This document shows positions 1,552 to 59,815 of a DNA stretch of 64,000 bases, piece by piece. The DNA comes from Eledone cirrhosa (lineage: Eukaryota). A model generated the notes under the pieces. It was not told the origin of the DNA. It saw only the letters and a program-made list of their open reading frames with translations, and searched no databases. Where the stretch lies: positions 71,734,001 to 71,798,000 of the forward strand of contig OZ024747.1 of the NCBI GenBank assembly GCA_964016885.1. The letters run 5' to 3'. The stretch's first letter is position 1. Every line of letters starts with the position of its first letter. The position numbers and the translations under genes are program-made.

Positions 1552-1648
1552 AATATACTCCAAATACTTGTCGAGTGCTTTTATATCAGTTATAAATATT
1601 TACTAGTTGTAACCCAACAATTTAAATATAACTTTCCATATATGTATG

Positions 1649-9255: not shown

Positions 9256-9305
9256 GCTTTTCTGATGATTTCCTCCAAATGAAACAGTTCTAGTCCTGTT
9301 GAAGC
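9256..9305 (+). ncRNA. Minimal hammerhead-like motif (family shared with 24.3 kb and 58.9 kb)
   Basis: CTGATGA-tttcctccaaat-GAAACAG-ttctagtc-CTGT-T-gaagc; stems I and II are weak. Confidence 0.5.
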
Positions 9306-9394
9306 CATTTCTATATTAAATATATATATATACTCTTGTAGCTGTTCCAGCCATCCGGCTGAGACCATGATTGGGCACTGCCCTTGTTGCTACA

Positions 9395-23560: not shown

Positions 23561-24035
23561 TATATATGTGTGTGTGTATTTATATATTTACTCTTTTAGC
23601 TGTTCCAGTCATCTGGCTGAGGCCATGCTGGGAATATATATATATAAGCAAAAATATATAAAGGGGAAGGTAATACATTAAATGTATTGCCTTCTGTGCC
23701 ATATATTTTTGCTTATACCTGCTCTGCTTACCTTCTGCACTTAACTCTCATTAAATATTAACCTTACTATAATATTTAATGTTGCACCTCTAAGCATTGA
23801 ACACACTTTGCTTCGGCTATAGGCATCTAATATATTATATCATAGTTCTTTCTCTCCTACTCTTATGATATATGTCTCTTTCTTCGATATGTATATATAT
23901 ATATAAGCAAAGAGATATTTAATTTGTTGGTAGTTCAACAAATTTATTTATAACAGATTCGAAGCACTCAACTAGTTTCCTGGAGTATAATCAATGATAT
24001 TAATAAATGGAAACTATATTTATAAAAACAATATT

Positions 24036-24097
24036 TATTTTATTATATATATTTCAAGGGTACCAAAAACTTTGGTACACTTTCATCGGATAAAATA
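24036..24097 (-). ncRNA. Type I hammerhead motif with a core variant CCGAUGA, relative of 1443-1508
   Basis: Stem I tattttat/ataaaata; stem II aag..ctt plus gtaccaaa/tttggtac; GAAA-tatata-TA. Confidence 0.65.
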
Positions 24098-24174
24098 CAA
24101 AGTGTGTTTTATAAATAGTGACATAGCCCAGAAACCAGACTTTATCGGTTCAGGTTCCATTTGGATATATATAT

Positions 24175-24372
24175 GTTTATCCCAGGTTGAATCGGAGGTA
24201 ACCACAGTAAGTAAGGTACTCAATACATAGCAGAGTATAAATATTTAATATAGAAACGGCTTCTACAGGACTAGAACTCTTTCATTCAGAAGAAATACGC
24301 TTTCCTGATGATTTCTTTCAAATGAAGCAGTTCTAGTCCTGTAGAAGCCATTTTTATCATATATTAAATATA
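24175..24372. mobile_element. Foldback element with a degenerate hammerhead motif (24299-24348)
   Basis: Arms at about 24241-24296 and 24311-24372; CTGATGA at 24305 with GAAAC mutated to GAAGC. 24175-24296 is homologous to the reverse complement of 58907-59030. Confidence 0.65.
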
Positions 24373-25044
24373 TATATATATATATATCTATATATATCTT
24401 TCCCTCTTTTTCTTTCTCCTTCTTTTCTCTCTATTTCTATAATTGTTTCTCCATTTCACCTTGATTCTTACAACAGGCTCAACCACAAACCTATCAGAGA
24501 GCGGCTGATACTTTGACAGTTTTCCCTCTTTGGCCAGGTGGGCAGCGTAGCCTGGGCTGGTAGCCAAAGGCAGCCAGTTACTGCTAGGTATCTATACTGA
24601 GAACAGTCAGCCCTGGGAACAATAGTTGAGACACAATTTAACCCTCTCACTGTAACTGCCATAACAACTTTCACAGTTAATTGTAGTTGTTATCTCTACT
24701 GCCTCACTCACTAATACAATTATATATATTGTTACTGTTGTTATTGTTGTTGTCATTGCAGTTGCATGACGTAGTTATTGATGGCATTCTATGCTCATGC
24801 AGCTGTTTCTCTTGTCATTTTTTTTTTTTTTTTTTTTTTTATAATTTCCAATGGAAGCACAATACCACAATCTTTGGTGGGTTGTCCATTAAATTGATCT
24901 TAGTACTTGATTGGTTTGGTCCTTTATTTTATCAACCCTGGAATGATGAAAGGTAAAATGATGGGATTTTAATTAAGAACTTAATGAGCAAAAACAAATA
25001 CTGCAAGGCATATTGTCCAATGCTCTAACAATATTGGTGACAGT

Positions 25045-26400: not shown

Positions 26401-27129
26401 GTAGTTTTTGACTTAAAAAGAAGATGAAGTAGATGTGTCTAGAATGTTCTTCTTGACTGGGGCTGACCCAGGGCTAAACAACAATAACATTTCACCACAC
26501 AGTACTATGCAAATATGAGTCAAAGATAGAGTCTCTATATTGCTACTTGACCTTCTATAAATAACAGTTAAATCTCCTTCAAATCTATAATGTTAGTGAA
26601 ATTACTCTATCTTCTTTTGTGGATATATTTGCTATATTTTCTTCTAATCTTTACAACATTCATGCACAAGGAAACATTGTATTTCCATTGGTGTGCTGCA
26701 GAAAACTCACCTTCCCATGGGCACAGGATGAAACAATCTTGTAGAGGGTACATATCTACACCAATCTCCCCCCTCCCCCCATTGATCTTAATTTAATGTT
26801 CAATCACATCTCATCACCAACTAAATATCCTACTCTAGACTCTAACCATCCCCACTTACCTTTTCCATGTCCAACTGCCTGCATACTACTTCTCTCTCTT
26901 TCCAACTCCCACATCTCTCATACATCTCTCCTGTCAAACCCATGCATACATGTATGGAAAGCTGGACATGCTGCAAACTTGCTCTCTGCTACAATAAATG
27001 CACCAAGTCCTCCTGATCCCCACCTCCCACACTCCTGATCCCTACCACCCACACTCCTCTTCAATCTATGTATACAAGCATGGAAAACTGGACATTCTCC
27101 ACACCTGCTCCTCACAGTGTTGCAGCCTC

Positions 27130-30100
27130 AACAAAAGCACCTAGTTCACCCTGTAAGGAGGTTGTGCTGATGCCACAACAAAAGTACTCAGTTCACCCAG
27201 TAGGTAGTCGTGCTGGTAACACAATGAAAAAGCACCCAGTTTACCCTGTAATATAGTCGTTTGGTGCCACAATGAAAAGCACCCAGTTTACCCTGTCATA
27301 TAGTCGTTTGGTGCCACAATAAAAAGCACCCAGTTTACCCTGTCATATGGTCGTTTGGTGCCACAATAAAAAGCACCCAGTTTACCCTGTCATATAGTCG
27401 TTTGGTGCCACAATAAAAAGCACCCAGTTTACCCGGTCATGTGGTCGTTTGGTGCCACAATAAAAAGCACCCAGTTTACCCTGTCATATAGTCGTTTGGT
27501 GCCACAATAAAAAGCACCCAGTTTACCCTGTCATATGGTCGTTTGGTGCCACAATAAAAAGCACCCAGTTTACCCTGTCATATGGTCGTTTGGTGCCTCA
27601 ATAAAAAGCACCCAGTTTACCCTGCCATATAGTCGTTTGGTGCCACAATAAAAAGCACCCAGTTTACCCTGTCATATGGTCGTTTGGTGCCACAAAAAAT
27701 AGCACCCAGTTTACCCTGTCATATGGTCGTTTGGTGCCACAATAAAAAGCACCCAGTTTACCCTGTCATATAGTCGTTTGGTGCCACAATAAAAAGCACC
27801 CAGTTTACCCTGTCATATAGTCGTTTGGTGCCACAATAAAAAGCACCCAGTTTACCCTGTCATATAGTCGTTTGGTGTCACAATAAAAAGCACCCAGTTT
27901 ACCCTGTCATATAGTCGTTTGGTGTCACAATAAAAAGCACCCAGTTTATCCTGTCATATAGTCGTTTGGTGCCACAATAAAAAGCACCCAGTTTACCCTG
28001 TCATATGGTCGTTTGGTGCCACAATAAAAAGCACCCAGTTTACCCTGTCATATAGTCGTTTGGTGCCACAATAAAAAGCACCCAGTTTACCCTGTCATAT
28101 GGTCGTTTGGTGCCACAATAAAAAGCACCCAGTTTACCCTGTCATATGGTCGTTTGGTGTCACAATAAAAAGCACCCAGTTTACCCTGTCATATGGTCGT
28201 TTGGTGCCACCATAAAAAGCACCCAGTTTACCCTGTCATATAGTCGTTTGGCGCCACAATAAAAAGCACCCAGTTTACCCTGTCATATAGTCGTTTGGTG
28301 TCACAATAAAAAGCACACAGTGTACCCTGTCATATGGTCGTTTGGTGCCACAATAAAAAGTACCCAGTTTACCCTGTCATATGGTCGTTAGGTGCCACAA
28401 TAAAAAGCACCCAGATTACCTTGTCATATAGTCGTTTGGTGCCACAATAAAAAGTACCCAGTTTACCCTGTCATATAGTCGTTTGGTGCCACAATAAAAA
28501 GCACCCAGTTTACCCTGTCATATGGTCGTTTGGTGCCACAATAAAAAGCACCCAGTTTACCCTGTCATATGGTCGTTTGGTTCCACAATAAAAAGCACCC
28601 AGTTTACCTTGTCATATAGTCGTTTGGTGCCACAATAAATAGTACCCAGTTTACCCTGTCATATAGTCGTTTGGTGCCACAATAAAAAGCACCCAGTTTA
28701 CCCTGTCATATAGTCGTTTGGTGCCACAATAAAAAGCACCCAGTTTACCCTGTCATATGGTCGTTTGGTGCCACAATAAAAAGCAACCTGTTTACACTGT
28801 CATATGGTCGTTTGCTGCCACAATAAAGAGCACCCAGTTTACCCTGTCATATGGTCGTTTGGTGCCACAATAAAAAGCACCCAGTTTACCCTGTCATATA
28901 GTCGTTTGGTGCCACAATAAAAAGCACCCAGTTCACCCTGTCATATGGTCGTTTGGTGCCACAATAAAGAGCACCCAGTTTACCCTGTCATATGGTCGTT
29001 TGGTGCCACAATAAAAAGCACCCAGTTTACCCTGTCATATAGTCGTTTGGTGCCACAATAAAAAGCACCCAGTTCACCCTGTCATATGGTCGTTTGGTGC
29101 CACAATAAAAAGCACCCAGTTTACCCTGTCATATGGTCGTTTGGCGCCACAATAAAAAGCACCCAGTTTACCCTGTCATATAGTCGTTTGGTCCCACAAT
29201 AAAAAGCACCCTGTCATATAGTCGTTTGGTTCCACAATAAAAAGCACCCAGTTTACCCTGTCATATAGTCGTTTGGTGCCAAAATAAAAAGCACCCAGTT
29301 TACCCTGTCATATGGTCGTTTGGTGCCACAATAAAAAGCACCCTGTTTACCCTGACATATGGTCGTTTGGTGTCACAATAAAAAGCACCCAGTTTACCCT
29401 GTCATATGGTCGTTTGGTGCCACAATAAAAAGTACCCAGTTTACCCTGACATATGGTCGTTTGGTGCCACAATAAAAAGCACCCAGTTTACCCTGTCATA
29501 TGGTCGTTTGGTGCCACAATAAATAGCACCCAGTTTACCCTGTCATATGGTCGTTTGGTGCCACAATAAAAAGCACCCAGTTTACCCTGTCATATGGTCG
29601 TTTGGTGCCACAATAAAAAGTACCCTGTCATATAGTCGTTTGGTGCTACAATAAAAAGCACCCAGTTTACCCTGTCATATAGTCGTTTGGTGCCACAATA
29701 GAAAGCACCCAGTTTACCCTGTCATATAGTCGTTTGGTTCCACAATAAAAAGCACCTAGTTTACCCTGTCATATGGTCGTTTGGTCCCACAATAAAAAAA
29801 AAATCCTGTTTACACTGTCATATGGTCGTTTGGTTCCACAATAAAAAGCACCCAGTTTACCCTGTCATATGGTCGTTTGGTGCCACGATAAAAAGCACCC
29901 AGTTTACCCTGTCATATAGTCGTTTGGTGCCACAATAAAAAGCACCCAGTTTACCCTGTCATATGGTCGTTTGGTTCCACAATAAAAAGCACCCAGTTTA
30001 CCCTGTCATATGGTCGTTTGGTACCACAATAAAAAGCACCCAGTTTACCCTGTCATATAGTCGTTTGGTGCTACAATAAAAAGCACCCAGTTTACCCTGT

Positions 30101-33100
30101 CATATAGTCGTTTGGTGCTACAATAAAAAGCACCCAGTTTACCCTGTCATATAGTCGTTTGGTGCTACAATAAAAAGCACCCAGTTTACCCTGTCATATA
30201 GTCGTTTGGTGCTACAATAAAAAGCACCCAGTTTACCCTGTCATATGGTCGTTTGGTGCTACAATAAAAAGCACCCAGTTTACCCTGTCATATAGTCGTT
30301 TGGTGCTACAATAAAAAGTACCCAGTTTACCCTGTCATATGGTCGTTTGGTGCCACAATAAAAAGTACCCAATTTACCCTGTCATATAGTCGTTTGGTGC
30401 TACAATAAAAAGTAGCCAGTTTACCCTGTCATATAGTCGTTTGGTGCCACAATAAAAAGCACCCAGTTTACCCTGTCATATAGTCGTTTGGTGCTACAAT
30501 AAAAAGCACCTAGTTTACCCTGTCATATGGTCGTTTGGTGTCACAATAAAAAGCACCCTGTTTACACTGTCATATGGTCGTTTGGTGCCACAATAAAAAG
30601 CACCCAGTTTACCCTGTCATATGGTCGTTTGGTTCCACAATAAAAAGCACCCAGTTTACCCTGTCATATAGTCGTTTGGTGCCACAATAAAAAGCACCCA
30701 GTTTACCCTGTCATATGGTCGTTTGGTCCCACAATAAAAAGCACCCAGTTTACCCTGTCATATGGTCGTTTAGTGCTACAATAAAAAGCACCCAGTTTAC
30801 CCTGTCATATAGTCGTTTGGTGTCACAATAAAAAGCACCCAGTTTACCCTGTCATATGGTCGTTTGGTGCCACAATAAAAAGCACCCAGTTTACCCTGCC
30901 ATATGGTCGTTTGGTGCCACAATAAAAAGCACCCAGTTTACCCTGTCATATGGTCGTTTGGTGCCACAATAAAAAGCACCCAGTTTACCCTGTCATATAG
31001 TCGTTTGGTGCCACAATAAAAAGCACCCAGTTTACCCTGTCATATAGTCGTTTGGTCCCACAATAAAAAGCACCCAGTTTACCCTGTCATATGGTCGTTT
31101 GGTGCTACAATAAAAAGTACCCAGTTTACCCTGTCATATGGTCGTTTGGTGCCACAATAAAAAGCACCCAGTTTACCCTGTCATATGGTCGTTTTGTGCC
31201 ACAATAAAAAGCACCCAGTTTACCCTGTCATATAGTCGTTTGGTGGCACAATAAAAAGCACCCAGTTTACCCTGTCATATAGTCGTTTGGTGTCACAATA
31301 AAAAGCACCCAGTTTACCCTGTCATATGGTCGTTTGGTGCCACAATAAAAAGCATCCAGTTTACACTGTCATATAGTCGTTTGGTGCTACAATAAAAAGC
31401 ACCCAGTTTACCCTGTCATATAGTCGTTTGGTGCTACAATAAAAAGCACCCAGTTTACCCTGTCATATAGTTGTTTGGTGCTACCTTAAAAAGCACCCAG
31501 ATTACCCTGTCATATAGTTGTTTGGTGCTACCTTAAAAAGCACCCAGATTACCCTGTCATATAGTCGTTTGGCGCCACAATAAAAAGCACCCAGTTTACC
31601 CTGTCATATAGTCGTTTGGTGTCACAATAAAAAGCACACAGTGTACCCTGTCATATGGTCGTTAGGTGCCACAATAAAAAGCACCCAGATTACCTTGTCA
31701 TATAGTCGTTTGGTGCCACAATAAAAAGTACCCAGTTTACCCTGTCATATAGTCGTTTGGTGCCACAATAAAAAGCACCCAGTTTACCCTGTCATATGGT
31801 CGTTTGGTGCCACAATAAAAAGCACCCAGTTTACCCTGTCATATGGTCGTTTGGTGCCACAACAAAAAGCAACCTGTTTACACTGTCATATGGTCGTTTG
31901 CTGCCACAATAAAAAGCATCCAGTTTACCCTGTCATAGGGTCGTTTGGTGCCACAATAAAAAGCACCCAGTTTACCCTGTCATATAGTCGTTTGGTCCCA
32001 CAATAAAAAGCACCCTGTCATATAGTCGTTTGTTGACACAATAAAAAGCACCCAGTTTACCCTGTCATATAGTCGTTTGGTGTCACAATAAAAAGCACCC
32101 AGTTTACCCTGTCATATAGTCGTTTGGTGCCACAATAAAAAGCACCCAGTTTACCCTGTCATATAGTCGTTTGGTCCCACAATAAAAAGCACCCTGTCAT
32201 ATAGTCGTTTGTTGACACAATAAAAAGCACCCAGTTTACCCTGTCATATAGTCGTTTGGTGTCACAATAAAAAGCACCCAGTTTACCCTGTCATATAGTC
32301 GTTTGGTGCCACAATAAAAAGCACCCAGTTTACCCTGTCATATAGTCGTTTGGTTCCACAATAAAAAGCACCCAGTTTACCCTGTCATATAGTCGTTTGG
32401 TGCCACAATAAAAAGCACCCAGTTTACCCTGTCATATGGTCGTTTGGTGCCACAATAAAAAGCACCCAGTTTACCCTGTCATATGGTCGTTTGGTGCTAC
32501 AATAAAAAGCACCCAGTTTACCCTGTCATATAGTCGTTTGGTGTCACAATAAAAAGCACCCAGTTTACCCTGTCATATGGTCGTTTGGTGCCACAATAAA
32601 AAGCACCCAGTTTACCCTGTCATATGGTCGTTTGGTGCCACAATAAAAAGCACCCAGTTTACCCTGTCATATGGTCGTTTGGTGCCACAATAAAAAGCAC
32701 CCAGTTTACCCTGTCATATAGTCGTTTGGTCCCACAATAAAAAGCACCCAGTTTACCCTGTCATATGGTCGTTTGGTGCTACAATAAAAAGTACCCAGTT
32801 TACCCTGTCATATGGTCGTTTGGTGCCACAATAAAAAGCACCCAGTTTACCCTGTCATATGGTCGTTTGGTGCCACAACAAAAAGCAACCTGTTTACACT
32901 GTCATATGGTCGTTTGCTGCCACAATAAAAAGCATCCAGTTTACCCTGTCATAGGGTCGTTTGGTGCCACAATAAAAAGCACCCAGTTTACCCTGTCATT
33001 GGTCGTTTGGTGCCACAATAAAAAGCACCCAGTTTACCCTGTCATATGGTCGTTTGGTTCCACAATAAAAAGCACCCAGTTTACCCTGTCATATAGTCGT

Positions 33101-36100
33101 TTGGTCCCACAATAAAAAGCACCCTGTCATATAGTCGTTTGTTGACACAATAAAAAGCACCCAGTTTACCCTGTCATATAGTCGTTTGGTGTCACAATAA
33201 AAAGCACCCAGTGTACCCTGTCATATGGTCGTTTGGTGCCACAATAAAAAGCACCCAGTTTACCCTGTCATATGGTCGTTTGGTGCCACAATAAAAAGCA
33301 CCCAGTTTACCCTGTCATATGGTCGTTTGGTTCCACAATAAAAAGCACCCAGTTTACCTTGTCATATAGTCGTTTGGTGCCACAATAAAAAGTACCCAGT
33401 TTACCCTGTCATATAGTCGTTTGGTGCCACAATAAAAAGCACCCAGTTTACCCTGTCATATAGTCGTTTGGTGCCACAATAAAAAGCACCCGGTTTACCC
33501 TGTCATATGGTCGTTTGGTGCCACAATAAAAAGCAACCTGTTTACACTGTCATATGGTCGTTTGCTGCCACAATAAAGAGCACCCAGTTTACCCTGTCAT
33601 ATGGTCGTTTGGTGCCACAATAAAAAGCACCCAGTTTACCCTGTCATATAGTCGTTTGGTGCCACAATAAAAAGCACCCAGTTTACCCTGTCATATGGTC
33701 GTTTGGTGCCACAATAAAAAGCACCCAGTTTACCCTGTCATATAGTCGTTTGGTCCCACAATAAAAAGCACCCTGTCATATAGTCGTTTGGTTCCACAAT
33801 AAAAAGCACCCAGTTTACCCTGTCATATAGTCGTTTGGTGCCAAAATAAAAAGCACCCAGTTTACCCTGTCATATGGTCGTTTGGTGCCACAATAAAAAG
33901 CACCCAGATTACCCTGACATATGGTCGTTTGGTGCCACAATAAAAAGCACCCAGTTTACCCTGTCATATGGTCGTTTGGTGCCACAATAAAAAGTACCCA
34001 GTTTACCCTGACATATGGTCGTTTGGTGCCACAATAAAAAGCACCCAGTTTACCCTGTCATATAGTCGTTTGGTTCCACAATAAAAAGCACCCACTTTAC
34101 CCTGTCATATGGTCGTTTGGTGCCACAATAAATAGCACCCAGTTTACCCTGTCATATGGTCGTTTGGTGCCACAATAAAAAGCACCCAGTTTACCCTGTC
34201 ATATGGTCGTTTGGTGCCACAATAAAAAGTACCCTGTCATATAGTCGTTTGGTGCTACAATAAAAAGCACCCAGTTTACCCTGTCATATAGTCGTTTGGT
34301 GCCACAATAAAAAGCACCCAGTTTACCCTGTCATATAGTCGTTTGGTTCCACAATAAAAAGCACCTAGTTTACCCTGTCATATGGTCGTTTGGTGCCACG
34401 ATAAAAAGCACCCAGTTTACCCTGTCATATAGTCGTTTGGTGCCACAATAAAAAGCACCCAGTTTACCCTGTCATATGGTCGTTTGGTTCCACAATAAAA
34501 AGCACCCAGTTTACCCTGTCATATGGTCGTTTGGTACCACAATAAAAAGCACCCAGTTTACCCTGTCATATAGTCGTTTGGTGCTACAATAAAAAGCACC
34601 CAGTTTACCCTGTCATATAGTCGTTTGGTGCTACAATAAAAAGCACCCAGTTTACCCTGTCATATAGTCGTTTGGTGCTACAATAAAAAGCACCCAGTTT
34701 ACCCTGTCATATAGTCGTTTGGTGCTACAATAAAAAGCACCCAGTTTACCCTGTCATATGGTCGTTTGGTGCTACAATAAAAAGCACCCAGTTTACCCTG
34801 TCATATAGTCGTTTGGTGCTACAATAAAAAGTACCCAGTTTACCCTGTCATATGGTCGTTTGGTGCCACAATAAAAAGTACCCAATTTACCCTGTCATAT
34901 AGTCGTTTGGTGCTACAATAAAAAGTAGCCAGTTTACCCAGTCATATAGTCGTTTGGTGCCACAATAAAAAGCACCCAGTTTACCCTGTCATATAGTCGT
35001 TTGGTGCTACAATAAAAAGCACCTAGTTTACCCTGTCATATGGTCGTTTGGTGTCACAATAAAAAGCACCCTGTTTACACTGTCATATGGTCGTTTGGTG
35101 CCACAATAAAAAGCACCCAGTTTACCCTGTCATATGGTCGTTTGGTTCCACAATAAAAAGCACCCAGTTTACCCTGTCATATAGTCGTTTGGTGCCACAA
35201 TAAAAAGCACCCAGTTTACCCTGTCATATGGTCGTTTGGTGCCACAATAAAAAGCACCCAGTTTACCCTGTCATATGGTCGTTTGGTGCTACAATAAAAA
35301 GCACCCAGTTTACCCTGTCATATAGTCGTTTGGTGTCACAATAAAAAGCACCCAGTTTACCCTGTCATATGGTCGTTTGCTGCCACAATAAAAAGCACCC
35401 AGTTTACCCTGTCATATGGTCGTTTGGTGCTACAATAAAAAGTACCCAGTTTACCCTGTCATATGGTCGTTTGGTGCCACAATAAAAAGCACCCAGTTTA
35501 CCCTGTCATATGGTCGTTTTGTGCCACAATAAAAAGCACCCAGTTTACCCTGTCATATAGTCGTTTGGTGGCACAATAAAAAGCACCCAGTTTACCCTGT
35601 CATATAGTCGTTTGGTGTCACAATAAAAAGCACCCAGTTTACCCTGTCATATGGTCGTTTGGTGCCACAATAAAAAGCATCCAGTTTACCCTGTCATATA
35701 GTCGTTTGGTGCTACAATAAAAAGCACCCAGTTTACCCTGTCATATAGTCGTTTGGTGCTACAATAAAAAGCACCCAGTTTACCCTGTCATATAGTTGTT
35801 TGGTGCTACCTTAAAAAGCACCCAGATTACCCTGTCATATAGTTGTTTGGTGCTACCTTAAAAAGCACCCAGATTACCCTGTCATATGGTCGTTTGGTGC
35901 TACAATATAAAGTTACTCAGTTTACCCTGTCATATGGTCGTTTGGTGCCACAATAAAAAGCATCCAGTTTATCCTGTCATATAGTCGTTTGGTGCCACAA
36001 TAAAAAGTGCCCAGTTTATCCTGTCATATAGTCGTTTGGTGCCACAATAAAAAGACCCAGCTTACCCTGTCATATAGTTGTTTGGTGCTACCTTAAAAAG

Positions 36101-39100
36101 CAACCAGATGACCCTGTCATATAGTTGTTTGGTGCCACAATAAAAAGCATCCAGTTTATCCTGTCATATAGTCGTTTGGTGCCACAATAAAAAGTGCCCA
36201 GTTTATCCTGTCATATAGTCGTTTGGTGCCACAATAAAAAGACCCAGCTTACCCTGCCATATAGTTGTTTGGTGCTACCTTAAAAAGCAACCAGATTACC
36301 CTGTCATATAGTTGTTTGGTGGCACAATAAAAAGCATCCAGTTTATCCTGTCATATAGTCGTTTGGTGCCACAATAAAAAGTGCCCAGTTTATCCTGTCA
36401 TATAGTTGTTTGGTGCCACAATAAAAAGACCCAGCTTACCCTGTCATATAGTTGTTTGGTGCTACCTTAAAAAGCAACCAGATTACCCTGTCATATAGTT
36501 GTTTGGTGCCACAATAAAAAGCATCCAGTTTATCCTGTCATATAGTCGTTTGGTGCCACAATAAAAAGTACCCAGTTTACCCTGTCATATAGTCGTTTGG
36601 TGCCACAATAAAAAGTGCCCAGTTTATCCTGTCATATAGTTGTTTGGTGCCACAATAAAAAGTACCCAGTTTACCCTGTCATATAGTCGTTTGGTGCCAC
36701 AATAAAAAGTACCCAGTTTACCCTGTCATATAGTCGTTTGGTCCCACAATAAAAAGTACCCAGTTTACCCTGTCATATAGTTGTTTGGTGCCACAATAAA
36801 AAGTGCCCAGTTTATCCTGTCATATAGTCGTTTGGTGCCACAATAAAAAGTGCCCAGTTTATCCTGTCATATAGTCGTTTGGTGCCACAATATAAAGTGC
36901 CCAGTTTATCCTGTCATATAGTCGTTTGGTGCCACAATAAAAAGTGCCCAGTTTATCCTGTCATATAGTCGTTTGGTGCCACAATAAAAAGACCCAGCTT
37001 ACCCTGTCATATAGTCGTTTGGTGCCACAATAAAAAGTGCCCAGTTTATCCTGTCATATAGTTGTTTGGTGCCACAATAAAAAGTGCCCAGTTTATCCTG
37101 TCATATAGTCGTTTGGTGCCACAATAAAAAGTGCCCAGTTTATCCTGTCATATAGTCGTTTGGTGCCACAATAAAAAGTACCCAGTTTATCCTGACATAT
37201 AGTCGTTTGGTGCCACAATAAAAAGTACCCAGTTTACCCTGTCATATAGTTGTTTGGTTCCACAATAAAAAGTACCCAGTTTACCCTGTCATATAGTCGT
37301 TTGGTGCCACAATAAAAAGTACCCAGTTTACCCTGTCAGATAGTTGTTTGGTGCCACAATAAAAAGTACCCAGTTTACCCTGTCATATAGTTGTTTGGTG
37401 CCACAATAAAAAGTACCCAGTTTATCCTGTCATATAGTCGTTTGGTGCCACAATAAAAAGTACCCAGTTTACCCTGTCATATAGTCGTTTGGTGCCACAA
37501 TAAAAAGTACCCAGTTTACCCTGTCATATATGTTGTTTGGTGCCACAATAAAAAGTACCCAGTTTATCCTGTCATATAGTCGTTTGGTGCCACAATAAAA
37601 AGTACCCAGTTTATCCTGTCATATAGTCGTTTGGTGCCACAATAAAAAGTACCCAGTTTATCCTGTCATATAGTCGTTTGGTGCCACAATAAAAAGTACC
37701 CAGTTTACCCTGTCATATAGTTGTTTGGTCCCACAATAAAAAGTACCCAGTTTATCCTGTCATATAGTCGTTTGGTGCCACAATAAAAAGTACCCAGTTT
37801 ATCCTGTCATATAGTCGTTTGGTGCCACAATAAAAAGTACCCAGTTTACCCTGTCATATAGTTGTTTGGTACCACAATAAAAAGTACCCAGTTTACCCTG
37901 TCATATAGTTGTTTGGTGCCACAATAAAAAGTGCCCAGTTTATCCTGTCATATAGTCGTTTGGTACCACAATAAAAAGTGCCCAGTTTATGCTGTCATAT
38001 AGTCGTTTGGTGCCACAATAAAAAGTGCCCAGTTTATCCTGTCATATAGTCGTTTGGTGCCACAATAAAAAGACCCAGCTTACCCTGTCATATAATCGTT
38101 TGGTGCCACAATAAAAAGTGCCCAGTTTATCCTGTCATATAGTTGTTTGGTGCCACAATAAAAAGTGCCCAGTTTATCCTGTCATATAGTTGTTTGGTGC
38201 CACAATAAAAAGTGCCCAGTTTATCCTGTCATATAGTCGTTTGGTGCCACAATAAAAAGTGCCCAGTTTATCCTGTCATATAGTCGTTTGGTGCCACAAT
38301 AAAAAGTACCCAGTTTATCCTGTCATATAGTCGTTTGGTGCCACAATAAAAAGACCCAGCTTACCCTGTCATATAGTCGTTTGGTGCCACAATAAAAAGT
38401 GCCCAGTTTATCCTGTCATATAGTTGTTTGGTCCCACAATAAAAAGTACCCAGTTTACCCTGTCATATAGTCGTTTGGTGCCACAATAAAAAGTGCCCAG
38501 TTTATCCTGTCATATAATTGTTTGGTCCCACAATAAAAAGTGCCCAGTTTATCCTGTCATATAGTCGTTTGGTGCCACAATAAAAAGTACCCAGTTTACC
38601 CTGTCATATAGTCGTTTGGTGCCACAATAAAAAGTGCCCAGTTTATCCTGTCATATAGTTGTTTGGTGCCACAATAAAAAGTGCCCAGTTTATCCTGTCA
38701 TATAGTCGTTTGGTGCCACAATAAAAAGTACCCAGTTTATCCTGTCATATGGTCGTTTGGTGCCACAATAAAAAGTACCCAGTTTATCCTGTCATATAGT
38801 TGTTTGGTCCCACAATAAAAAGTGCCCAGTTTATCCTGTCATATAGTTGTTTGGTGCCACAATAAAAAGTACCCAGTTTACCCTGTCATATAGTTGTTTG
38901 GTCCCACAATAAAAAGTACCCAGTTTACCCTGTCATATAGTTGTTTGGTGCCACAATAAAAAGTACCCAGTTTACCCTGTCATATAGTTGTTTGGTGCCA
39001 CAATAAAAAGTACCCAGTTTACCCTGTCATATAGTCGTTTGGTGCCACAATAAAAAGTACCCAGTTTATCCTGTCATATAGTCGTTTGGTGCCACAATAA

Positions 39101-40420
39101 AAAGTACCCAGTTTATCCTGTCATATAGTTGTTTGGTGCCACAATAAAAAGTACCCAGTTTATCCTGTCATATAGTCGTTTGGTGCCACAATAAAAAGTA
39201 CCCAGTTTATCCTGTCATATGGTCGTTTGGTGCCACAATAAAAAGTACCCAGTTTATCCTGTCATATAGTTGTTTGGTGCCACAATAAAAAGTACCCAGT
39301 TTATCCTGTCATATAGTTGTTTGGTGCCACAATAAAAAGTACCCAGTTTATCCTGTCATATAGTCGTTTGGTACCACAATAAAAAGTACCCAGTTTACCC
39401 TGTCATATAGTTGTTTGGTACCACAATGAAAAGTACCCAGTTTATCCTGTCATATAGTTGTTTGGTGCCACAATAAAAAGTACCCAGTTTATCCTGTCAT
39501 ATAGTCGTTTGGTACCACAATAAAAAGTACCCAGTTTACCCTGTCATATAGTCGTTTGGTACCACAATAAAAAGTACCCAGTTTACCCTGTCATATAGTC
39601 GTTTGGTGCCACAATAAAAAGTACCCAGTTTATCCTGTCATATAGTCGTTTGGTACCACAATAAAAAGTACCCAGTTTACCCTGTCATATAGTCGTTTGG
39701 TACCACAATAAAAAGTACCCAGTTTACCCTGTCATATAGTCGTTTGGTGCCACAATAAAAAGTACCCAGTTTATCCTGTCATATAGTCGTTTGGTACCAC
39801 AATAAAAAGTACCCAGTTTACCCTGTCATATAGTCGTTTGGTACCACAATAAAAAGTACCCAGTTTACCCTGTCATATAGTCGTTTGGTGCCACAATAAA
39901 AAGTACCCAGTTTATCCTGTCATATAGTTGTTTGGTGCCACAATAAAAAGTACCCAATTTACCCTGTCATATAGTCGTTTGGTGCCACAATAAAAAGTAC
40001 CCAGTTTACCCTGTCATATAGTCGTTTGGTGCCACAATAAAAAGTACCCAGTTTATCCTGTCATATAGTTGTTTGGTGCCACAATAAAAAGTACCCAGTT
40101 TACCCTGTCATATAGTCGTTTGGTGCCACAATAAAAAGTACCCAGTTTACCCTGTCATATAGTCGTTTGGTGCCACAATAAAAAGTACCCAGTTTACCCT
40201 GTCATATAGTCGTTTGGTGCCACAATAAAAAGTACCCAGTTTATCCTGTCATATAGTCGTTTGGTGCCACAATAAAAAGTACCCAGTTTACCCTGTCATA
40301 TAGTCGTTTGGTGCCACAATAAAAAGTACCCAGTTTATCCTGTCATATAGTTGTTTGGTGCCACAATAAAAAGTACCCAGTTTACCCTGTCATATAGTCG
40401 TTTGGTGCCACAATAAAAAA
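27130..40420. repeat. 47-bp tandem satellite, about 280 units, 13.2 kb
   Basis: Unit aaaaagcacccagtttaccctgtcatat(a/g)gtcgtttggtgccacaat; period 47 (27232, 27279, 27326). Two diverged units lie at 27130-27226. Confidence 0.98.
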
Positions 40421-49763: not shown

Positions 49764-52700
49764 CAGTCATGGACAAACTGCAACGCGTTTGACTTCTTGA
49801 ATAACATGTCTAATTTCAAAATTGTCTGGAATTTGTTAGTAGTGTGGCACATCTTATGATGAGCCACACCTATGTGGCTCGCCTTATGTTGGGCCATGAC
49901 CTATGTGGCTCGCCTTATGTTGGGCCATGACCTATGTGGTTCGCCTTATGTTGGGCCATAACCTATGTGGCTCGCCTTATGTTGGGCCATAACCTATGTG
50001 GCACATCTTATGATGAGCCACACCTATGTGGATCGCCTTATGTTGGGCCATAACCTATGTGGATCGCCTTATGTTGGGCCATGACCTATGTGGCTCGCCT
50101 TATGATGAGCCACACCTATGTGGCTCGCCTTATGTTGGGCCATAACCTATGTGGATCGCCTTATGTTGGGCCATGACCTATGTGGCACATCTTATGATGA
50201 GCCACACCTATGTGGATCGCCTTATGTTGGGCCATAACCTATGTGGCTCGCCTTATGTTGGGCCATGACCTATGTGGCACATCTTATGATGAGCCACACC
50301 TATGTGGCTCGCCTTATGTTGGGCCATAACCTATGTGGCTCGCCTTATGTTGGGCCATGACCTATGTGGCACATCTTATGATGAGCCACACCTATGTGGC
50401 TCGCCTTATGTTGGGCCATAACCTATGTGGCTCGCCTTATGTTGGGCCATGACCTATGTGGCACATCTTATGATGAGCCACACCTATGTGGCTCGCCTTA
50501 TGTTGGGCCATGACCTATGTGGCACATCTTATGATGAGCCACACCTATGTGGCTCGCCTTATGTTGGGCCATGACCTATGTGGCACATCTTATGATGAGC
50601 CACACCTATGTGGCTCGCCTTATGTTGGGCCATAACCTATGTGGATCGCCTTATGTTGGGCCATGACCTATGTGGCTCGCCTTATGTTGGGCCATGACCT
50701 ATGTGGTTCGCCTTATGTTGGGCCATAACCTATGTGGATCGCCTTATGTTGGGCCATAACCTATGTGGCTCGCCTTATGTTGGGCCATAACCTATGTGGA
50801 TCGCCTTATGTTGGGCCATAACCTATGTGGATCGCCTTATGTTGGGCCATAACCTATGTGGCTCGCCTTATGTTGGGCCATAACCTATGTGGCTCGCCTT
50901 ATGTTGGGCCATGACCTATGTGGGTCGCCTTATGTTGGGCCATGACCTATGTGGTTCGCCTTATGTTGGGCCATAACCTATGTGGCTCGCCTTATGTTGG
51001 GCCATAACCTATGTGGCTCGCCTTATGTTGGGCCATAACCTATGTGGCTCGCCTTATGTTGGGCCATGACCTATGTGGCTCGCCTTATATTGGGCCATGA
51101 CCTATGTGGCTCGCCTTGTGATGAGCCACACCTATGTGGCTCGCCTTATGATGAGCCACACCTATGTGGCTCGCCTTATGTTGGGCCATAACCTATGTGG
51201 ATCGCCTTATGTTGGGCCATAACCTATGTGGCTCGCCTTGTGATGAGCCACACCTATGTGGCTCGCCTTATGATGAGCCACACCTATGTGGATCGCCTTA
51301 TGTTGGGCCATAACCTATGTGGCTCGCCTTATGTTGGGCCATGACCTATGTGGCACATCTTATGATGAGCCACACCTATGTGGCTCGCCTTATGTTGGGC
51401 CATAACCTATGTGGATCGCCTTATGTTGGGCCATGACCTATGTGGCTCGCCTTATGTTGGGCCATGACCTATGTGGTTCGCCTTATGTTGGGCCATAACC
51501 TATGTGGATCGCCTTATGTTGGGCCATAACCTATGTGGCTCGCCTTATGTTGGGCCATAACCTATGTGGATCGCCTTATGTTGGGCCATAACCTATGTGG
51601 CTCGCCTTATGTTGGGCCATAACCTATGTGGCTCGCCTTATGTTGGGCCATAACCTATGTGGCTCGCCTTATGTTGGGCCATGACCTATGTGGTTCGCCT
51701 TATGTTGGGCCATAACCTATGTGGCTCGCCTTATGTTGGGCCATAACCTATGTGGCTCGCCTTATGTTGGGCCATAACCTATGTGGCTCGCCTTATGTTG
51801 GGCCATGACCTATGTGGCTCGCCTTATGTTGGGCCATGACCTATGTGGCTCGCCTTGTGATGAGCCACACCTATGTGGCTCGCCTTATGATGAGCCACAC
51901 CTATGTGGATCGCCTTATGTTGGGCCATAACCTATGTGGATCGCCTTATGTTGGGCCATAACCTATGTGGCTCGCCTTGTGATGAGCCACACCTATGTGG
52001 CTCGCCTTATGATGAGCCACACCTATGTGGATCGCCTTATGTTGGGCCATAACCTATGTGGCTCGCCTTATGTTGGGCCATGACCTATGTGGCACATCTT
52101 ATGATGAGCCACACCTATGTGGCTCGCCTTATGTTGGGCCATAACCTATGTGGATCGCCTTATGTTGGGCCATGACCTATGTGGCTCGCCTTATGTTGGG
52201 CCATGACCTATGTGGTTCGCCTTATGTTGGGCCATAACCTATGTGGCACATCTTATGATGAGCCACACCTATGTGGCTCGCCTTGTGATGAGCCACACCT
52301 ATGTGGCTCGCCTTATGTTGGGCCATAACCTATGTGGCTCGCCTTGTGATGAGCCATAACCTATGCGGCTCGCCTTGTGATGAGCCATAACCTATGCGGC
52401 TCGCCTTATGATTATCCACACCTATGTGGCTCGCCTTATGTTGGGCCATAACCTATGCGGCTCGCCTTGTGATGAGCCATGACCTATGTGGCTCGCCTTA
52501 TGTTGAGCCATAACCTATGTGGCTCGCCTTATGTTGAGCCATAACCTATGTGGCTCGCCTTGTGATGAGCCATGACCTATGCGGCTCGCCTTGTGATGAG
52601 CCATAACCTATGTGGCTCGCCTTATGTTGGGCCATAACCTATGTGGCTCGCCTTATGTTGGGCCATGACCTATGTGGTTCGCCTTATGTTGGGCCATAAC

Positions 52701-54470
52701 CTATGTGGCTCGCCTTATGTTGGGCCATAACCTATGTGGCTCGCCTTATGTTGGGCCATAACCTATGTGGCTCGCCTTATGTTGGGCCATGACCTATGTG
52801 GCTCGCCTTATGTTGGGCCATGACCTATGTGGCTCGCCTTGTGATGAGCCACACCTATGTGGCTCGCCTTATGATGAGCCACACCTATGTGGATCGCCTT
52901 ATGTTGGGCCATAACCTATGTGGATCGCCTTATGTTGGGCCATAACCTATGTGGCTCGCCTTGTGATGAGCCACACCTATGTGGCTCGCCTTATGATGAG
53001 CCACACCTATGTGGATCGCCTTATGTTGGGCCATAACCTATGTGGCTCGCCTTATGTTGGGCCATGACCTATGTGGCACATCTTATGATGAGCCACACCT
53101 ATGTGGCTCGCCTTATGTTGGGCCATAACCTATGTGGATCGCCTTATGTTGGGCCATGACCTATGTGGCTCGCCTTATGTTGGGCCATGACCTATGTGGT
53201 TCGCCTTATGTTGGGCCATAACCTATGTGGCACATCTTATGATGAGCCACACCTATGTGGCTCGCCTTGTGATGAGCCACACCTATGTGGCTCGCCTTAT
53301 GTTGGGCCATAACCTATGTGGCTCGCCTTGTGATGAGCCATAACCTATGCGGCTCGCCTTGTGATGAGCCATAACCTATGCGGCTCGCCTTATGATTATC
53401 CACACCTATGTGGCTCGCCTTATGTTGGGCCATAACCTATGCGGCTCGCCTTGTGATGAGCCATGACCTATGTGGCTCGCCTTATGTTGAGCCATAACCT
53501 ATGTGGCTCGCCTTATGTTGAGCCATAACCTATGTGGCTCGCCTTGTGATGAGCCATGACCTATGCGGCTCGCCTTGTGATGAGCCATAACCTATGTGGC
53601 TCGCCTTATGTTGGGCCATAACCTATGCGGCTCGCCTTGTGATGAGCCATAACCTATGTGGTTCGCCTTATGTTGAGCCATAACCTATGTGGCTCGCCTT
53701 ATGATCAGCCGTAACCTATGCGGCTCGCCTTGTGATGAACCATAACCTATGTGGCTCGCCTTATGTTGGGCCATAACCTATGCGGCTCGCCTTATGTTGG
53801 GCCATAACCTATGCGGCTCGCCTTATGTTGGGTCATAACCTATGTGGCTCACAACTTGAGAAAAGTTTTCCATGAATAATTTAAATCATATTTTACAGAA
53901 AAAATTCTCTCAAAGTCTTTAAACTCTTACGATTATGCAATTTTGAATTAACAATATTTTCCCACCAACATGTAGCGAAATAAGTAGTTTTAATGCTAAA
54001 TCATAAATCTCTTTGTAGAGAGATTCTGGCGGAAAAAATCCCTTCAAAGAGATTTCAATCAAATATGAAATTGTATTCGAAAGTTGAATCCAGAGTATCT
54101 TCCATAGCTGCTTCTGTTAAAAGTACATTCTAGTTTGGGTCTTGTTATTTTCATTAAAATATTTTGCAATATATAAAATTGCAGATTTGATATGTTTAAA
54201 TCACTCAGAAATACCAAAATATTTCATGGATTCTAAAACACCTAGATTATCTGATAGTAGCTGCTTAATTTACTGTACAAGTTTAATAACCGGATTAATG
54301 CATCTTTCGCATTTTTTTCTGTTTGTTGAGGAAGTTTACATTGGGAGAGTTAATTCTCAAATTGAAAACTAAGGTAGGCTTTTGAGCCTACAAAATCTGG
54401 AAGACATTCATCTTGCTTGAGTTTTTTTCCTGGCATAAGAATAATTGAACTAAGGGATCTATCTATAATA
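49764..54470 (-). mobile_element. Possible Charlie/Buster-type hAT relic hosting the minisatellite
   Basis: TIR-like cagtcatggacaaactgc at 49764. The minus strand near 53975-54003 reads DLALKLLI./FAT, resembling the Charlie C-terminus. Highly decayed. Confidence 0.4.
49843..53850. repeat. 30/31-bp minisatellite, about 130 units, 4 kb, with an internal dyad
   Basis: Units acctatgtggctcgccttatgttgggccat(a/g) (31 bp) and ...gatgagccac (30 bp). Confidence 0.97.
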
Positions 54471-57175: not shown

Positions 57176-57670
57176 CATGATGGATGTTTTAAAATACACA
57201 TTGTTCAACCGACACGGCTAACGATACATTTCTCTATGTTCACATTTTAATGACACATATCTGTAAATAAAACTTGCTCTTTTTGAATACCGTCTCATTT
57301 TTTTTATTGAAACAGTTGATCAGGTAAAATTATCCTCTAAGTTAAACATACAACACGGAAATTGACCATTAACATTGCAGCCCTACCAAGAACTGACACC
57401 GTCCAATATGTGTGTGCGCTTGTTATATACGTATTTATTTATTTATATACGTTTATTTAATTATTTATTTATTTGTATACACGCATACACACACACACAT
57501 ATTTATATGTGCGTGGTTTTGTATACCTATGGCAAGTGTTTTCGCGTATGCTTGTGTATGTACGTATTTGTATGCGTGTATGTATTTATTTAATTTCTAT
57601 TACTTCTGTATTGTATTTTACTTTATTCTTAACTCTGAAGCGGAGATTCATTTGGTCTCCTAGTTAGAAT

Positions 57671-57921
57671 TTAGTCTACGACTTCAGCTATACCATTTAC
57701 GTGGTTTTGTCTTTGCGTGCAATTGTTCTCCACGCTTCACATATAACGTATTATCTTCGTTTTTTCCGTTCATTGCCAGAGAACGTCTCTATGCACCACC
57801 TAAGAGAACATTAGTCTACGACCTCTTTTATACCATAAATGTGGTTCTGTCTTTGCGCGTAATTGTTTTTCACCGCTCCTATTAATGACGTATTATATTC
57901 GTTTTTTCCCGTTCTTTGCCA
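57671..57921. repeat. Diverged tandem duplication of about 140 bp
   Basis: ttagtctacgac...gtggtt.tgtctttgcg...ccgttc.ttgccag occurs at 57671 and 57811. Confidence 0.75.
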
Positions 57922-58120
57922 GCCTCCGGTTGCAACGTTTTTTGAAATATCCACTTCTGCGTTTACAGATTGACTTTGTTAGTTTCAGAAGATCCCGTTA
58001 AGGGTGAAAGCAGCGATTCTTTGCTTAAACTTTAATCTGTTATTTTAATAAATATATATATTTCATATATATACATATATATATATATCACGTATACATA
58101 TACATATATATATATCACGT

Positions 58121-58193
<73 letters not shown>

Positions 58194-58356
58194 TATACAT
58201 ATATATCTATCACATATACATATTTCATGTATCTGTATACATATATATACATATATATATAAATTTTGAGTATATGTTGGTTGTTCACCGACACCTCAGT
58301 ATGCAGAATGGAGCACTCGGCGAAGTGCGCGGGTTAGTTTGGTTACTCCGGAGTAA

Positions 58357-58774
58357 TGTAAAATAAAATAAATAAGTCAAATATTTAAAATTTGGCTTCG
58401 TTTATTACTGCTATATATATTTCGGTGACAGCCATCTTTGGCTGTGACCTCTTCAGGCAGTCCGAATTAGTGTGGTAGAGACGGGTACACATGTTGTTGA
58501 GGTGTATAATTTTGTCAATATTCCGATATGTCCAGTTCCTGGTTGGATTGTTATTTCTCTGTTAATCATATGAATTCAAACAAACGAATTTCAGCGTCAA
58601 AGACATATCGGAATATTGACAAAGTTAAACACCTCAACAACATGTGTACTCGTCTCTACCACACTAATTCGGACTGCCTGAAGAGGTCACAGCCAAAGAT
58701 GGCTGTCACCGAAATATATATAGCAGTAATAAACGAAGCCAAATTTTAAATATTTGACTTATTTATTTTATTTT

Positions 58775-58777
<3 letters not shown>
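58357..58777. mobile_element. Foldback element with 176-bp arms and a 69-bp spacer, carrying two opposed hammerheads
   Basis: 58357-58532 is the reverse complement of 58602-58777 with few mismatches. The right end abuts CA/(TA)n. Confidence 0.88.
58673..58727 (+). ncRNA. Canonical type I hammerhead ribozyme motif (mirror copy 58407-58461 on minus)
   Basis: Stem I actgc/gcagt; CTGAAGA; stem II ggt-c-acagcca-aaga-tggctgt-c-acc with a G10.1-C11.1 pair; GAAA-tatata-TA with predicted cleavage after 58722. Confidence 0.88.
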
Positions 58778-58850
<73 letters not shown>

Positions 58851-58851
58851 C

Positions 58852-59030
58852 ATAGAAAAGGCTTCTAGATGACTAGAACTGTTTCATTCGGGAGAAATCA
58901 TCAGATGATTTCTCCCGAATGAAACAGTTCTAGTCCTGTAGAAGCTTTTTTCTATATTAAATATTTATACTCTGCTTTGTATTGAGTACCTAACTTACTG
59001 TGGTTACCCCCGATTGAACCCATGATAAAC
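58852..59030. mobile_element. Foldback centred on a hammerhead core (family of 9256 and 24299)
   Basis: Symmetric about 58903 (aaatcatc-a-gatgattt). The minus strand reads CTGATGA-tttctcccgaat-GAAACAG. Confidence 0.7.
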
Positions 59031-59047
59031 TTATATTATATATATAT

Positions 59048-59093
<46 letters not shown>

Positions 59094-59095
59094 TG

Positions 59096-59229
59096 TGCAT
59101 AGATTTGGTACAAACACCAGTATTTCATCGTACAACCTACACTATATATATATGTGTATGTGTATATATATATATATATATAGTGTAGGTTGTACGATGA
59201 AATACTAGTGTTTGTACCAAATCTATGCA
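59096..59229. repeat. Foldback with arms of about 50 bp around a TA microsatellite spacer
   Basis: tgcatagatttggtacaaacaccagtatttcatcgtacaacctacacta and its reverse complement. Confidence 0.85.
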
Positions 59230-59497
59230 TAATAGAAAACAAGAGGAAGTTTCGTTTACATATGAAAAATACTTATTGCGTATCGACCTGACGCGCGTTT
59301 TGCAGAGGATTGGCTCAAGGTGACCCATAAGATATCTTTTGTCGCATCACCAGTCTAAGGAGCAGATTGATACTGGACTCGGGTCCATAACTCTTATGGG
59401 TCACCTTGAGCCAATCCTCTGCGAAACTCGCGTAACAGGTCGATACGCAATAAATATTTTTTATATGTAAACGAAACTTCCTCGTTTTTTCTATTAT
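59229..59497. mobile_element. Foldback with arms of about 104 bp and a degenerate hammerhead at 59350-59439
   Basis: CTAAGGA (core G>A); long stem II gcag/ctgc, gattg/caatc, ccataa-ctc-ttatgg; GAAAC-tcgc-GTA. The opposite arm gives aaaac-gcgc-GTC. Confidence 0.7.
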
Positions 59498-59544: not shown

Positions 59545-59766
59545 TAAAGGAACGATCGACCTTCGTCAAATCGAACCGAGGAAACAATGTTTCCGTTGGT
59601 CTTTCCAATTGCTAATACTATCTATCGGTCGCAACTCCAGGTAGAAGGAGCAACGTGAAATAAAGTGGCTTGCTCAAGGACATAACGCATCGCCTGGTCC
59701 AGGAATCGAACTCACAACCTTACGATTACGAATCCAATTCTCTAACCACTCAGCCACACGCCTTCA
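59545..59766 (-). mobile_element. tRNA-derived SINE (family B-type head)
   Basis: Minus strand: aaggcgtgtggctgagtggttagag A box, gagttcgattcc B box, and tccttgagcaagccactttatttcacgttgctcc. Confidence 0.82.
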
Positions 59767-59815
59767 CATATATATATATATATACATATATATCTATATA
59801 TATATATATATATAT

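What the first reader, a model, noticed from the sequence alone, without database searches (positions are those of the whole stretch)
58357..59497. Four different foldback elements stacked in 1.15 kb of TA microsatellite, including a canonical hammerhead
Consecutive palindromes (58357-58777, 58852-58955, 59096-59229, 59229-59497) are unrelated in sequence and mostly separated by (TA)n. The first has a fully canonical ribozyme motif in both arms. The second inverts exactly at the CUGAUGA core. The third retains only a GAAA-tactagtg 3'-half-like piece. The fourth has a long stem II and the GAAAC-gcgc-GUC type of loop III. This looks like an insertion hotspot. Inversion points in or near the ribozyme suggest that RNA structure triggers template switching during reverse transcription (inference).
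Basis: partly seen in the sequence, partly recalled or inferred. Interest (0 to 1): 0.75.

Follow-up and report, generated by a model that had tools for sequence, protein, structure and literature searches.

The report
Stacked Penelope retrotransposon stubs with hammerheads
These mirror-image DNA pieces are real but largely ordinary: they are three short, head-to-head stubs of abundant Penelope-type jumping genes plus one local duplication, piled into a TA repeat, and their break points likely mark where the element's RNA begins rather than where its self-cutting ribozyme acts.

Summary
The four inverted repeats exist, but they are not four unrelated elements. P1, P2 and P4 are head-to-head, 5'-truncated ends (pseudo-LTR, type I hammerhead motif, one-sided tail) of three high-copy repeat families. 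P3 is P4's own tail plus an inverted duplicate. P1 belongs to a Hydra-clade Penelope-like element (PLE) with RT and GIY-YIG ORF; P4 is tied to a similar ORF remnant; P2's ORF was not found. Only P1's hammerhead is intact. The layout is published, and this scan noted it before on other DNA. In 116 tail-anchored genomic copies, 62 show the same tail-less inverted partner. 5' ends cluster at family-specific spots: P1 about 122 nt upstream of the core (0 of 47 at the core), P2 at the core's 5' edge (32 of 58), P4 from 33 nt upstream. There is no excess at the cleavage site. In P2 and P4 the cluster edge lies about 30 nt behind a TATA box, so it likely marks the transcript start, where internally primed reverse transcription runs off. 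Ribozyme-triggered template switching is not supported as a general rule. Known kind, modest new mechanistic leads.

The parts
57410..58052 (+).
   Evidence: 92% identical over 643 nt to the 3' region of the ORF-bearing element in L281; ORF motifs; motif read by eye
58048..58261 (.). (TA)n-rich tract between P0 and P1
58262..58356 (-). P1 tail (unpaired 3' extension), opening with an RCTC...GAGY palindrome
   Evidence: in L212 the same tail runs on to the ORF's first ATG
58357..58601 (-). P1 tail-bearing body (left arm plus spacer), 5'-truncated at about -158 from the core; intact hammerhead motif at 58407-58461
58602..58777 (+). P1 inverted, tail-less copy, 5'-truncated at -74
58673..58727 (+). 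Intact type I hammerhead motif: 5-bp stem I, core CUGAAGA, stem II with one mismatch, palindromic AU loop III, AUA triplet; predicted to pair as a dimer through loop III
   Evidence: motif scan; fold and cofold; cleavage not tested
58781..58846 (.). (TA)33
58848..58904 (-). P2 inverted tail-less copy, truncated at the first core base; lacks the 5' strand of stem I and has two changes in stem III, so predicted dead
58904..59031 (+). P2 tail-bearing body truncated at +2 inside the core, with unpaired tail 58956-59031
59092..59142 (+). Left arm of 'P3': inverted duplicate of the P4 tail, sharing its shortened form
59143..59183 (.). (TA)/(TG)n at the P4 tail end; centre of 'P3'
59184..59228 (-). 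P4 tail (right arm of 'P3'), internally shortened
   Evidence: one run contig covers 59191-59259 with no difference (X2 record 14)
59229..59332 (-). P4 tail-bearing body, truncated at +37 inside stem II; no core
59329..59497 (+). P4 inverted tail-less copy starting at -26; hammerhead motif 59349-59440 with 61-nt stem II region, core changed to CUAAGGA (59357), predicted dead

Best explanation
The region is a stack of three head-to-head, 5'-truncated stubs from high-copy repeat families with the pseudo-LTR, hammerhead motif and one-sided tail of Penelope-like retroelements (P1 joined to a Hydra-clade ORF, P4 to a similar ORF remnant, P2 likely so), plus an inverted duplicate of one tail, which likely arrived one after another in a (TA)n tract. 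Mechanism. (1) Shown: in a full copy (L212) the order is pLTR, hammerhead, tail, ATG, ORF, so the stubs are copies of the stretch just upstream of the ORF. (2) From the Anolis PLE in vitro (PMC11167929): the endonuclease nicks both strands of AT-rich DNA and reverse transcription starts internally at two sites that bound the tail. (3) Inferred: both target ends prime a cDNA, one from the tail end and one from the inner site; the two truncated cDNAs are joined head to head, giving a palindrome with a one-sided tail. (4) Inferred: initiation at the 5' pLTR lies only some 70-320 nt from the RNA's start, so many cDNAs run off at the transcription start; this makes the family-specific clusters of 5' ends, which coincide with the ribozyme only where it begins at the RNA's 5' end. 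(5) Inferred: each insertion leaves (TA)n beside it, the target for the next family. (6) Inferred: P3 arose by snap-back of the self-complementary (TA)n at P4's tail. Odds: identity as PLE stubs about 0.93; two-ended priming about 0.7; clusters equal transcription starts about 0.55.
For: High copy number: 1482, 1175 and 2669 first-look candidates for P1, P2, P4 (not copy numbers). P1 pLTR follows the ORF in sense in at least 19 of 31 ORF-anchored loci within the 1.5-kb flank. The P1 ORF has RWK, DKT, YRDD, CxCx5C, GIY-YIG without CCHH, CxxC and CxH, the Hydra features of PMC8557442 section 11. P4: L231 and L247 carry a collinear endonuclease end and UTR upstream. 69 of 116 tail-anchored copies have an adjoining inverted copy, 62 of them starting at the tail-less site. 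Arms share family-polymorphic alleles in P1 (18 of 285 differ, against 83 of 268 for other copies), so they came in one event. Junctions are mostly asymmetric in P1 (15 of 16 differ by more than 10 nt) and P4 (23 of 25). Cluster windows: P1 14 ends in -128..-120, P2 23 in -8..0, P4 6 in -33..-25. TATA boxes at -36 (P2) and -63/-61 (P4), CCAAT boxes upstream in all three. Non-inverted copies end at the same spots (L135, L144, L321; L161, L169, L333). Incidental copies repeat the P2 cluster (25 of 35) and, weakly, the P1 cluster (3 of 19).
Against: No RNA data, so no transcription start was observed. P1, P0 and P7 have no canonical TATA 30 nt before their clusters. P0 (24 of 78 ends at -11..+8) and P7 (5 of 11 within 8 nt) cluster at the ribozyme's 5' edge like P2, and P4 has a mild excess there too (8 against 3.3), which a ribozyme-linked stop would also explain. 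No clear extra cap-derived G was seen; the G excess before P2's proposed start mostly comes from the inverted arm. P1's cluster lies on an 8-bp palindrome, which blurs alignment ends and could favour fold-back. In P4 the arms share polymorphic alleles no more than random copies do (21 of 73 against 18 of 69; older copies). P2's coding partner was not found in 60 long copies. Cluster windows were chosen after looking, and the two ends of a symmetric junction are counted twice.
Confidence: 0.8

Rival explanations
1. The folded hammerhead, or protein bound to it, stops reverse transcriptase at the core's 5' edge and provokes the switch.
For: P2 32 of 58 ends at core +-8; P0 24 of 78 at -11..+8, P7 5 of 11, incidental P1 3 of 19 at -6..-4; P4 8 against 3.3 expected.
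Against: P1 0 of 47 at the core; pooled cleavage-site ends 8 against 10.6 expected; fewer ends than expected 3' of the ribozyme, where a polymerase would first meet the fold; non-inverted copies share the clusters; hammerhead core mutants did not change insertion or product size in the Anolis system (PMC11167929).
Confidence: 0.2
2. Palindromes arise by self-priming fold-back of one strand at short internal palindromes, as proposed for rotifer Penelopes on an antisense template.
For: PMC3846280 passages; P1's cluster sits on an 8-bp palindrome; 10 of 21 P2 junctions are symmetric within 10 nt; arms share alleles in P1.
Against: Most P1 and P4 junctions are asymmetric, either arm can be the longer, and one arm often ends at the cluster while its partner ends anywhere. 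The two arms start at two different fixed 3' sites.
Confidence: 0.15
3. They are foldback or MITE-type DNA transposons, or assembly artefacts.
For: Long inverted arms; TA targets; no listed run contig bridges the P1, P2 or P4 centre.
Against: Variable 5' truncation, one-sided tails, ORF linkage; arms differ by 2-9% and are asymmetric; comparable junctions occur in run contigs (tables 5 and 5c).
Confidence: 0.03

Closest known systems
Hydra-clade endonuclease-positive Penelope-like elements (Craig et al. 2021, PMC8557442; passages and section 11 read)
   Same: C-terminal GIY-YIG, RWK and DKT motifs, CxCx5C linker, no CCHH, CxxC and CxH, canonical hammerhead in the pLTR, (TA)n targets, inverted 5'-truncated copy and one-sided tail.
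   Different: Tails here are about 55-95 nt against the 30-40 bp described; the P1 element has a long 3' UTR (about 1.5 kb from ORF end to 3' hammerhead in L212); most sampled copies are non-coding stubs. Supplementary family lists were not read, so these families may already be listed.
Poseidon of Anolis carolinensis (Frangieh et al. 2024, PMC11167929; parts 1-2 of 4 read)
   Same: Two internal RT start sites bounding the tail, both-strand cleavage of AT-rich DNA, hammerhead near the ORF start; explains the tail-plus/tail-less pair.
   Different: Other clade; its ORF starts inside the hammerhead, whereas in P1 the first ATG lies about 250 nt downstream of the core. The parts read do not map 5' truncation points.
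Minimal type I hammerheads of metazoan PLEs (Cervera and de la Pena 2014, PMC4209133; parts 1-2 of 4 read)
   Same: Short palindromic helix III, predicted dimer activity; that paper already reports dual motifs about 100-700 bp apart on opposite strands.
   Different: P0, P2 and P7 close stem II with U.U rather than G-C, P0 has A at core position 4, P4 has a 61-nt stem II region.
Adineta vaga Penelopes (Arkhipova et al. 2013, PMC3846280; passages read)
   Same: Head-to-head inverted pLTRs, optional tail on one arm, TATA and initiator-like motifs in the pLTR.
   Different: They propose self-priming on an antisense template; the asymmetry here fits two-ended priming better.
Twin priming of L1 (recalled, no call)
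   Same: Two target ends each prime a cDNA, giving a 5' inversion.
   Different: In L1 the two cDNAs copy non-overlapping parts of the RNA; here both copy the same stretch.

Membership tests
Hydra-clade PLE (P1 family) | RT with C-terminal GIY-YIG endonuclease in one ORF | tested here: met
   YRDD-bearing ORF; GIY-YIG E=6e-4, 20.5 bits, under the 22.6 cut-off; Pfam gave no RT hit
Hydra-clade PLE (P1 family) | RWK and DKT motifs | tested here: met
   L212
Hydra-clade PLE (P1 family) | CxCx5C linker, CCHH absent, CxxC and CxH around E and N | tested here: met
   L187, L216 against section 11 of PMC8557442
Hydra-clade PLE (P1 family) | Placement in the RT phylogeny | not tested
   No reference PLE proteins were fetched; no tree built
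Hydra-clade PLE (P4 family) | Linked RT/EN ORF | tested here: inconclusive
   Decayed endonuclease ends with CxCx5C-like linker collinear with the UTR in 2 of 30 long copies; no RT part seen
Hydra-clade PLE (P2 family) | Linked RT/EN ORF | tested here: inconclusive
   None within 1.5 kb upstream in 60 long copies; nearby ORFs in L284, L350, L358 belong to other insertions
PLE insertion unit | Inverted 5'-truncated copy plus one-sided tail | tested here: met
   62 of 116 copies
PLE insertion unit | (TA)n target preference | tested here: met
   103 of 116 against 92 of 2133
Type I hammerhead (P1 window copy) | CUGANGA and GAAA core, stems I and II, NUH triplet | tested here: met
Type I hammerhead (P1 window copy) | Self-cleavage | not testable with these tools
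   needs an assay
Type I hammerhead (P2 and P4 window copies) | Intact core and stem I | tested here: not met
   P2 lacks the stem I 5' strand on both arms; P4 has CUAAGGA on one arm and no core on the other. That this G-to-A change inactivates is recalled
Non-LTR retrozyme | Head-to-tail tandem units, each with a hammerhead | tested here: not met
   No tandem array here; definition from bioRxiv 2026.07.22.740005 part 1
MITE / foldback DNA transposon | Fixed ends with symmetric terminal inverted repeats and fixed internal length | tested here: not met
   Variable truncation, one-sided tail

The most novel reading that the evidence does not exclude
The stubs are a genomic footprint of PLE reverse transcription: they copy the element's 5' UTR from two internal start sites to the transcription start, so their 5' ends map pLTR promoters; in several families the hammerhead begins at the first bases of the RNA; and an RCTC...GAGY hairpin that opens the tail in six of six otherwise unrelated families is the signal that sets the inner start site. 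A bolder add-on (about 0.15): hammerhead dimers hold two RNAs in one particle, which would explain window P1 arms that differ only at three family-polymorphic sites.
Probability: 0.45. Interest if true: 0.55.

Novelty: new member of a known kind. Interest (0 to 1): 0.27.

Why it matters
As a locus it is ordinary debris of a known retroelement class. The value lies in the statistics: how PLEs make their inverted insertions, and what their hammerheads do, are stated open questions (PMC8557442 passages). The copy sample argues against cleavage or ribozyme stalling as the general cause, and gives three exact, testable predictions of transcript starts and a candidate initiation hairpin.

Tried and rejected
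Rfam: nothing at gathering threshold; E-value hits were generic hairpins. A Pfam family search in the genome failed on an unknown accession. I first read the ORFs as Neptune clade; the motifs fit Hydra. L162/L163 looked like long P2 copies but are a segmental duplicate. ORFs near P2 or P4 in L281, L284, L350 and L358 belong to other families. A planned prospective test on a further family (window 1548-1632) returned no match, so it was not run; incidental copies were used instead, and those of P5 were too diverged to read. The cap-G test was inconclusive. No RNA holder was listed. Run contigs and RAD reads are dominated by other copies and do not bridge the palindrome centres in the pieces shown; X1-X3 are one sample and may be the assembly's source; presence/absence polymorphism could not be tested. 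PMC5785218 was not held. Rearranged (scrambled) hammerheads noted by earlier agents in this genome were considered; P1, P2 and P4 read as ordinary type I order, and I did not search the tails systematically for scrambled forms.

Full report
Observation. The four inverted repeats are in the sequence. A motif scan of the window found a complete type I hammerhead at 58673-58727 (+) and its mirror at 58407-58461 (-), plus a second mirrored pair near 1287/1451. Each strand carries one sense motif, and the whole P1 transcript is predicted to fold into one long hairpin that pairs it. Rfam gave no hammerhead hit. The window lies in a 3.0-Gb animal assembly; I did not identify the species.

What the pieces are. 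Searches of the own genome show P1, P2 and P4 to be dispersed families with 1482, 1175 and 2669 first-look candidates, the best P1 matches 97-99% identical. Other copies reveal an unpaired 3' tail on one arm only: 58262-58356 for P1, 58956-59031 for P2, 59184-59228 for P4. The P4 tail is the right arm of P3. P3's left arm repeats it with the same shortened form, which no held locus outside the window shows. So P3 is not a family, and its GAAA piece is antisense tail. A fourth family's end (P0, 57410-58052) lies just upstream. P2's window copy lacks the 5' strand of stem I, and P4's has a changed core on one arm and none on the other. Only P1's motif is intact.

Link to coding elements. A long P1 copy carried a PLE ORF piece. 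In ORF-anchored loci the P1 pLTR follows the ORF in sense. L212 shows pLTR, hammerhead, tail, ATG about 250 nt after the core, ORF, UTR and a tail-less pLTR. Motifs RWK, DKT, YRDD, CxCx5C, GIY-YIG without CCHH, CxxC and CxH match the Hydra clade as defined in PMC8557442 section 11; Pfam gave GIY-YIG at E=6e-4, under its cut-off, and no RT hit. P4 is collinear with decayed endonuclease ends in 2 of 30 long copies. P2's ORF was not found in 60 long copies.

To avoid bias I sampled by the tail only: 121 loci, less four from the window and one of a duplicate pair, 116 in all (39 P1, 38 P2, 39 P4). These are the best matches to the window's tails, not a random draw. 69 have an adjoining inverted copy and 62 of those start at the family's tail-less site. 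With the first core base as 0, 5' ends fall as follows. P1: 14 of 47 in -128..-120, 0 within 8 nt of the core (3.5 expected). P2: 32 of 58 within 8 nt of the core (8.5 expected), with a sharp edge at -6. P4: 6 of 61 in -33..-25, 8 at the core (3.3 expected). Pooled ends at the cleavage site: 8 against 10.6 expected; ends 3' of the ribozyme: 31 against 48. Non-inverted copies end at the same spots, and in asymmetric junctions one arm often ends at the cluster while the other ends anywhere. Copies met by chance in loci fetched for other families repeat the P2 cluster (25 of 35) and show clusters at the hammerhead's 5' edge in P0 (24 of 78) and P7 (5 of 11); diverged subfamilies may inflate these. 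So breakpoints are non-random, often at the ribozyme's 5' edge, but not at its cut site or 3' face, and not at all in the tail-anchored P1 sample.

Mechanism. A TATA box lies at -36 in P2 and at -63/-61 in P4, about 30 nt before each cluster edge, with CCAAT boxes further up; the usual 30-nt spacing is recalled knowledge. PLE transcription starts in the pLTR (PMC2377424, PMC8557442 and PMC6765202 passages), although the Drosophila promoter is TATA-less. In the Anolis element both target strands are cut and extended, RT starts at two internal sites that bound the tail, and hammerhead mutants leave insertion unchanged (PMC11167929). I infer that two cDNAs primed from the two target ends run towards the RNA's start and are joined head to head. 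P1 arms share family-polymorphic alleles (18 of 285 differ, against 83 of 268 for other copies), P2 less clearly (9 of 71 against 25 of 68), P4 not (21 of 73 against 18 of 69). Against the start-site reading: no RNA data, no TATA in P1, P0 or P7, no clear cap G, and a short palindrome at P1's cluster.

Stacking. Tails end in (TA)n in 103 of 116 copies. Ends of six mapped families occur at 0.69 per kb within 100 nt of a tail and about 0.06 per kb at 400-1300 nt; 9 of 116 loci have a neighbour within 200 nt, and only 1 has two insertions within 1.5 kb on that side. Four insertions in 2.1 kb is therefore denser than any sampled locus, but I infer it is the expected extreme of successive targeting in a genome with thousands of copies. 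Arm divergence (3 of 163, 5 of 56, 7 of 98) suggests P1 is the youngest. A P3-like inverted tail of that length was seen in none of the other tail-anchored loci, only a shorter one in L099.

Reads. Run contigs cover 59191-59259 and 59347-59408 with no difference and show similar junction types, but no listed piece bridges a centre. RAD reads were uninformative.

Comparison and novelty. Inverted truncated copies with a one-sided tail, (TA)n targets and opposite-strand hammerhead pairs are all in print, and this scan has reported such stubs several times. I found no paper mapping PLE 5' ends to promoters or describing the shared tail hairpin in searches; the library lacks most subscription papers, I read only parts of the papers, and no supplements, which may list these families. 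The tail motif was found after looking, in 6 of 6 families against a 2.4% background; it folds as a stem in P0, P2, P4 and P7 but not in the lowest-energy folds of P1 and P5. Verdict: new members of a known kind, interest 0.27.

Noticed in passing
tails of P0 (L281), P1 (58262-58356), P2 (58956-59031), P4 (L220), P5 (L181), P7 (L076): Each tail opens with an RCTC...GAGY inverted motif close behind the tail-less end (A-U in five families, G-C in P0); background 123 of 5114. The window's P4 tail has lost it.
   Followed up: partly
window 57981-58031 (+): Hammerhead-like motif of family P0 with core CAGAAGA, U.U closing stem II and a 4-bp stem III; the A at position 4 recurs in most copies seen.
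   Followed up: partly
P0, P2 and P7 families (L281, L250-L279, L287-L292): All three close stem II with U.U instead of G-C; P2's 4-nt loop II varies while its 3-bp stem is kept.
   Followed up: partly
window 58357-58777: The three differences between P1's arms all fall on family-polymorphic sites where both letters are common; may mean two templates or gene conversion.
   Followed up: partly
window about 1190-1670, 9206-9328, 23887-24376: More PLE stubs: a P5 head-to-head pair with intact hammerhead motifs, a lone P2 end, and a P5 end beside a P2 palindrome.
   Followed up: partly
window 27125-40419 and 49853-53850: A 13-kb array of a 47-bp unit (284 copies) and a 4-kb array of a 31-bp unit (130 copies).
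   Followed up: no
window 59547-59767: Another high-depth dispersed repeat right after P4, also seen beside other loci; not identified.
   Followed up: no
L284, L285, L283, L009, L358, L350: At least five further Hydra-type ORF families and one Penelope/Poseidon-type endonuclease (CxxC inside GIY-YIG, L284) nested in the same kind of TA-rich sites.
   Followed up: partly
L152: Four tandem repeats of a short inverted P2 piece before the body, suggesting repeated template jumps.
   Followed up: no
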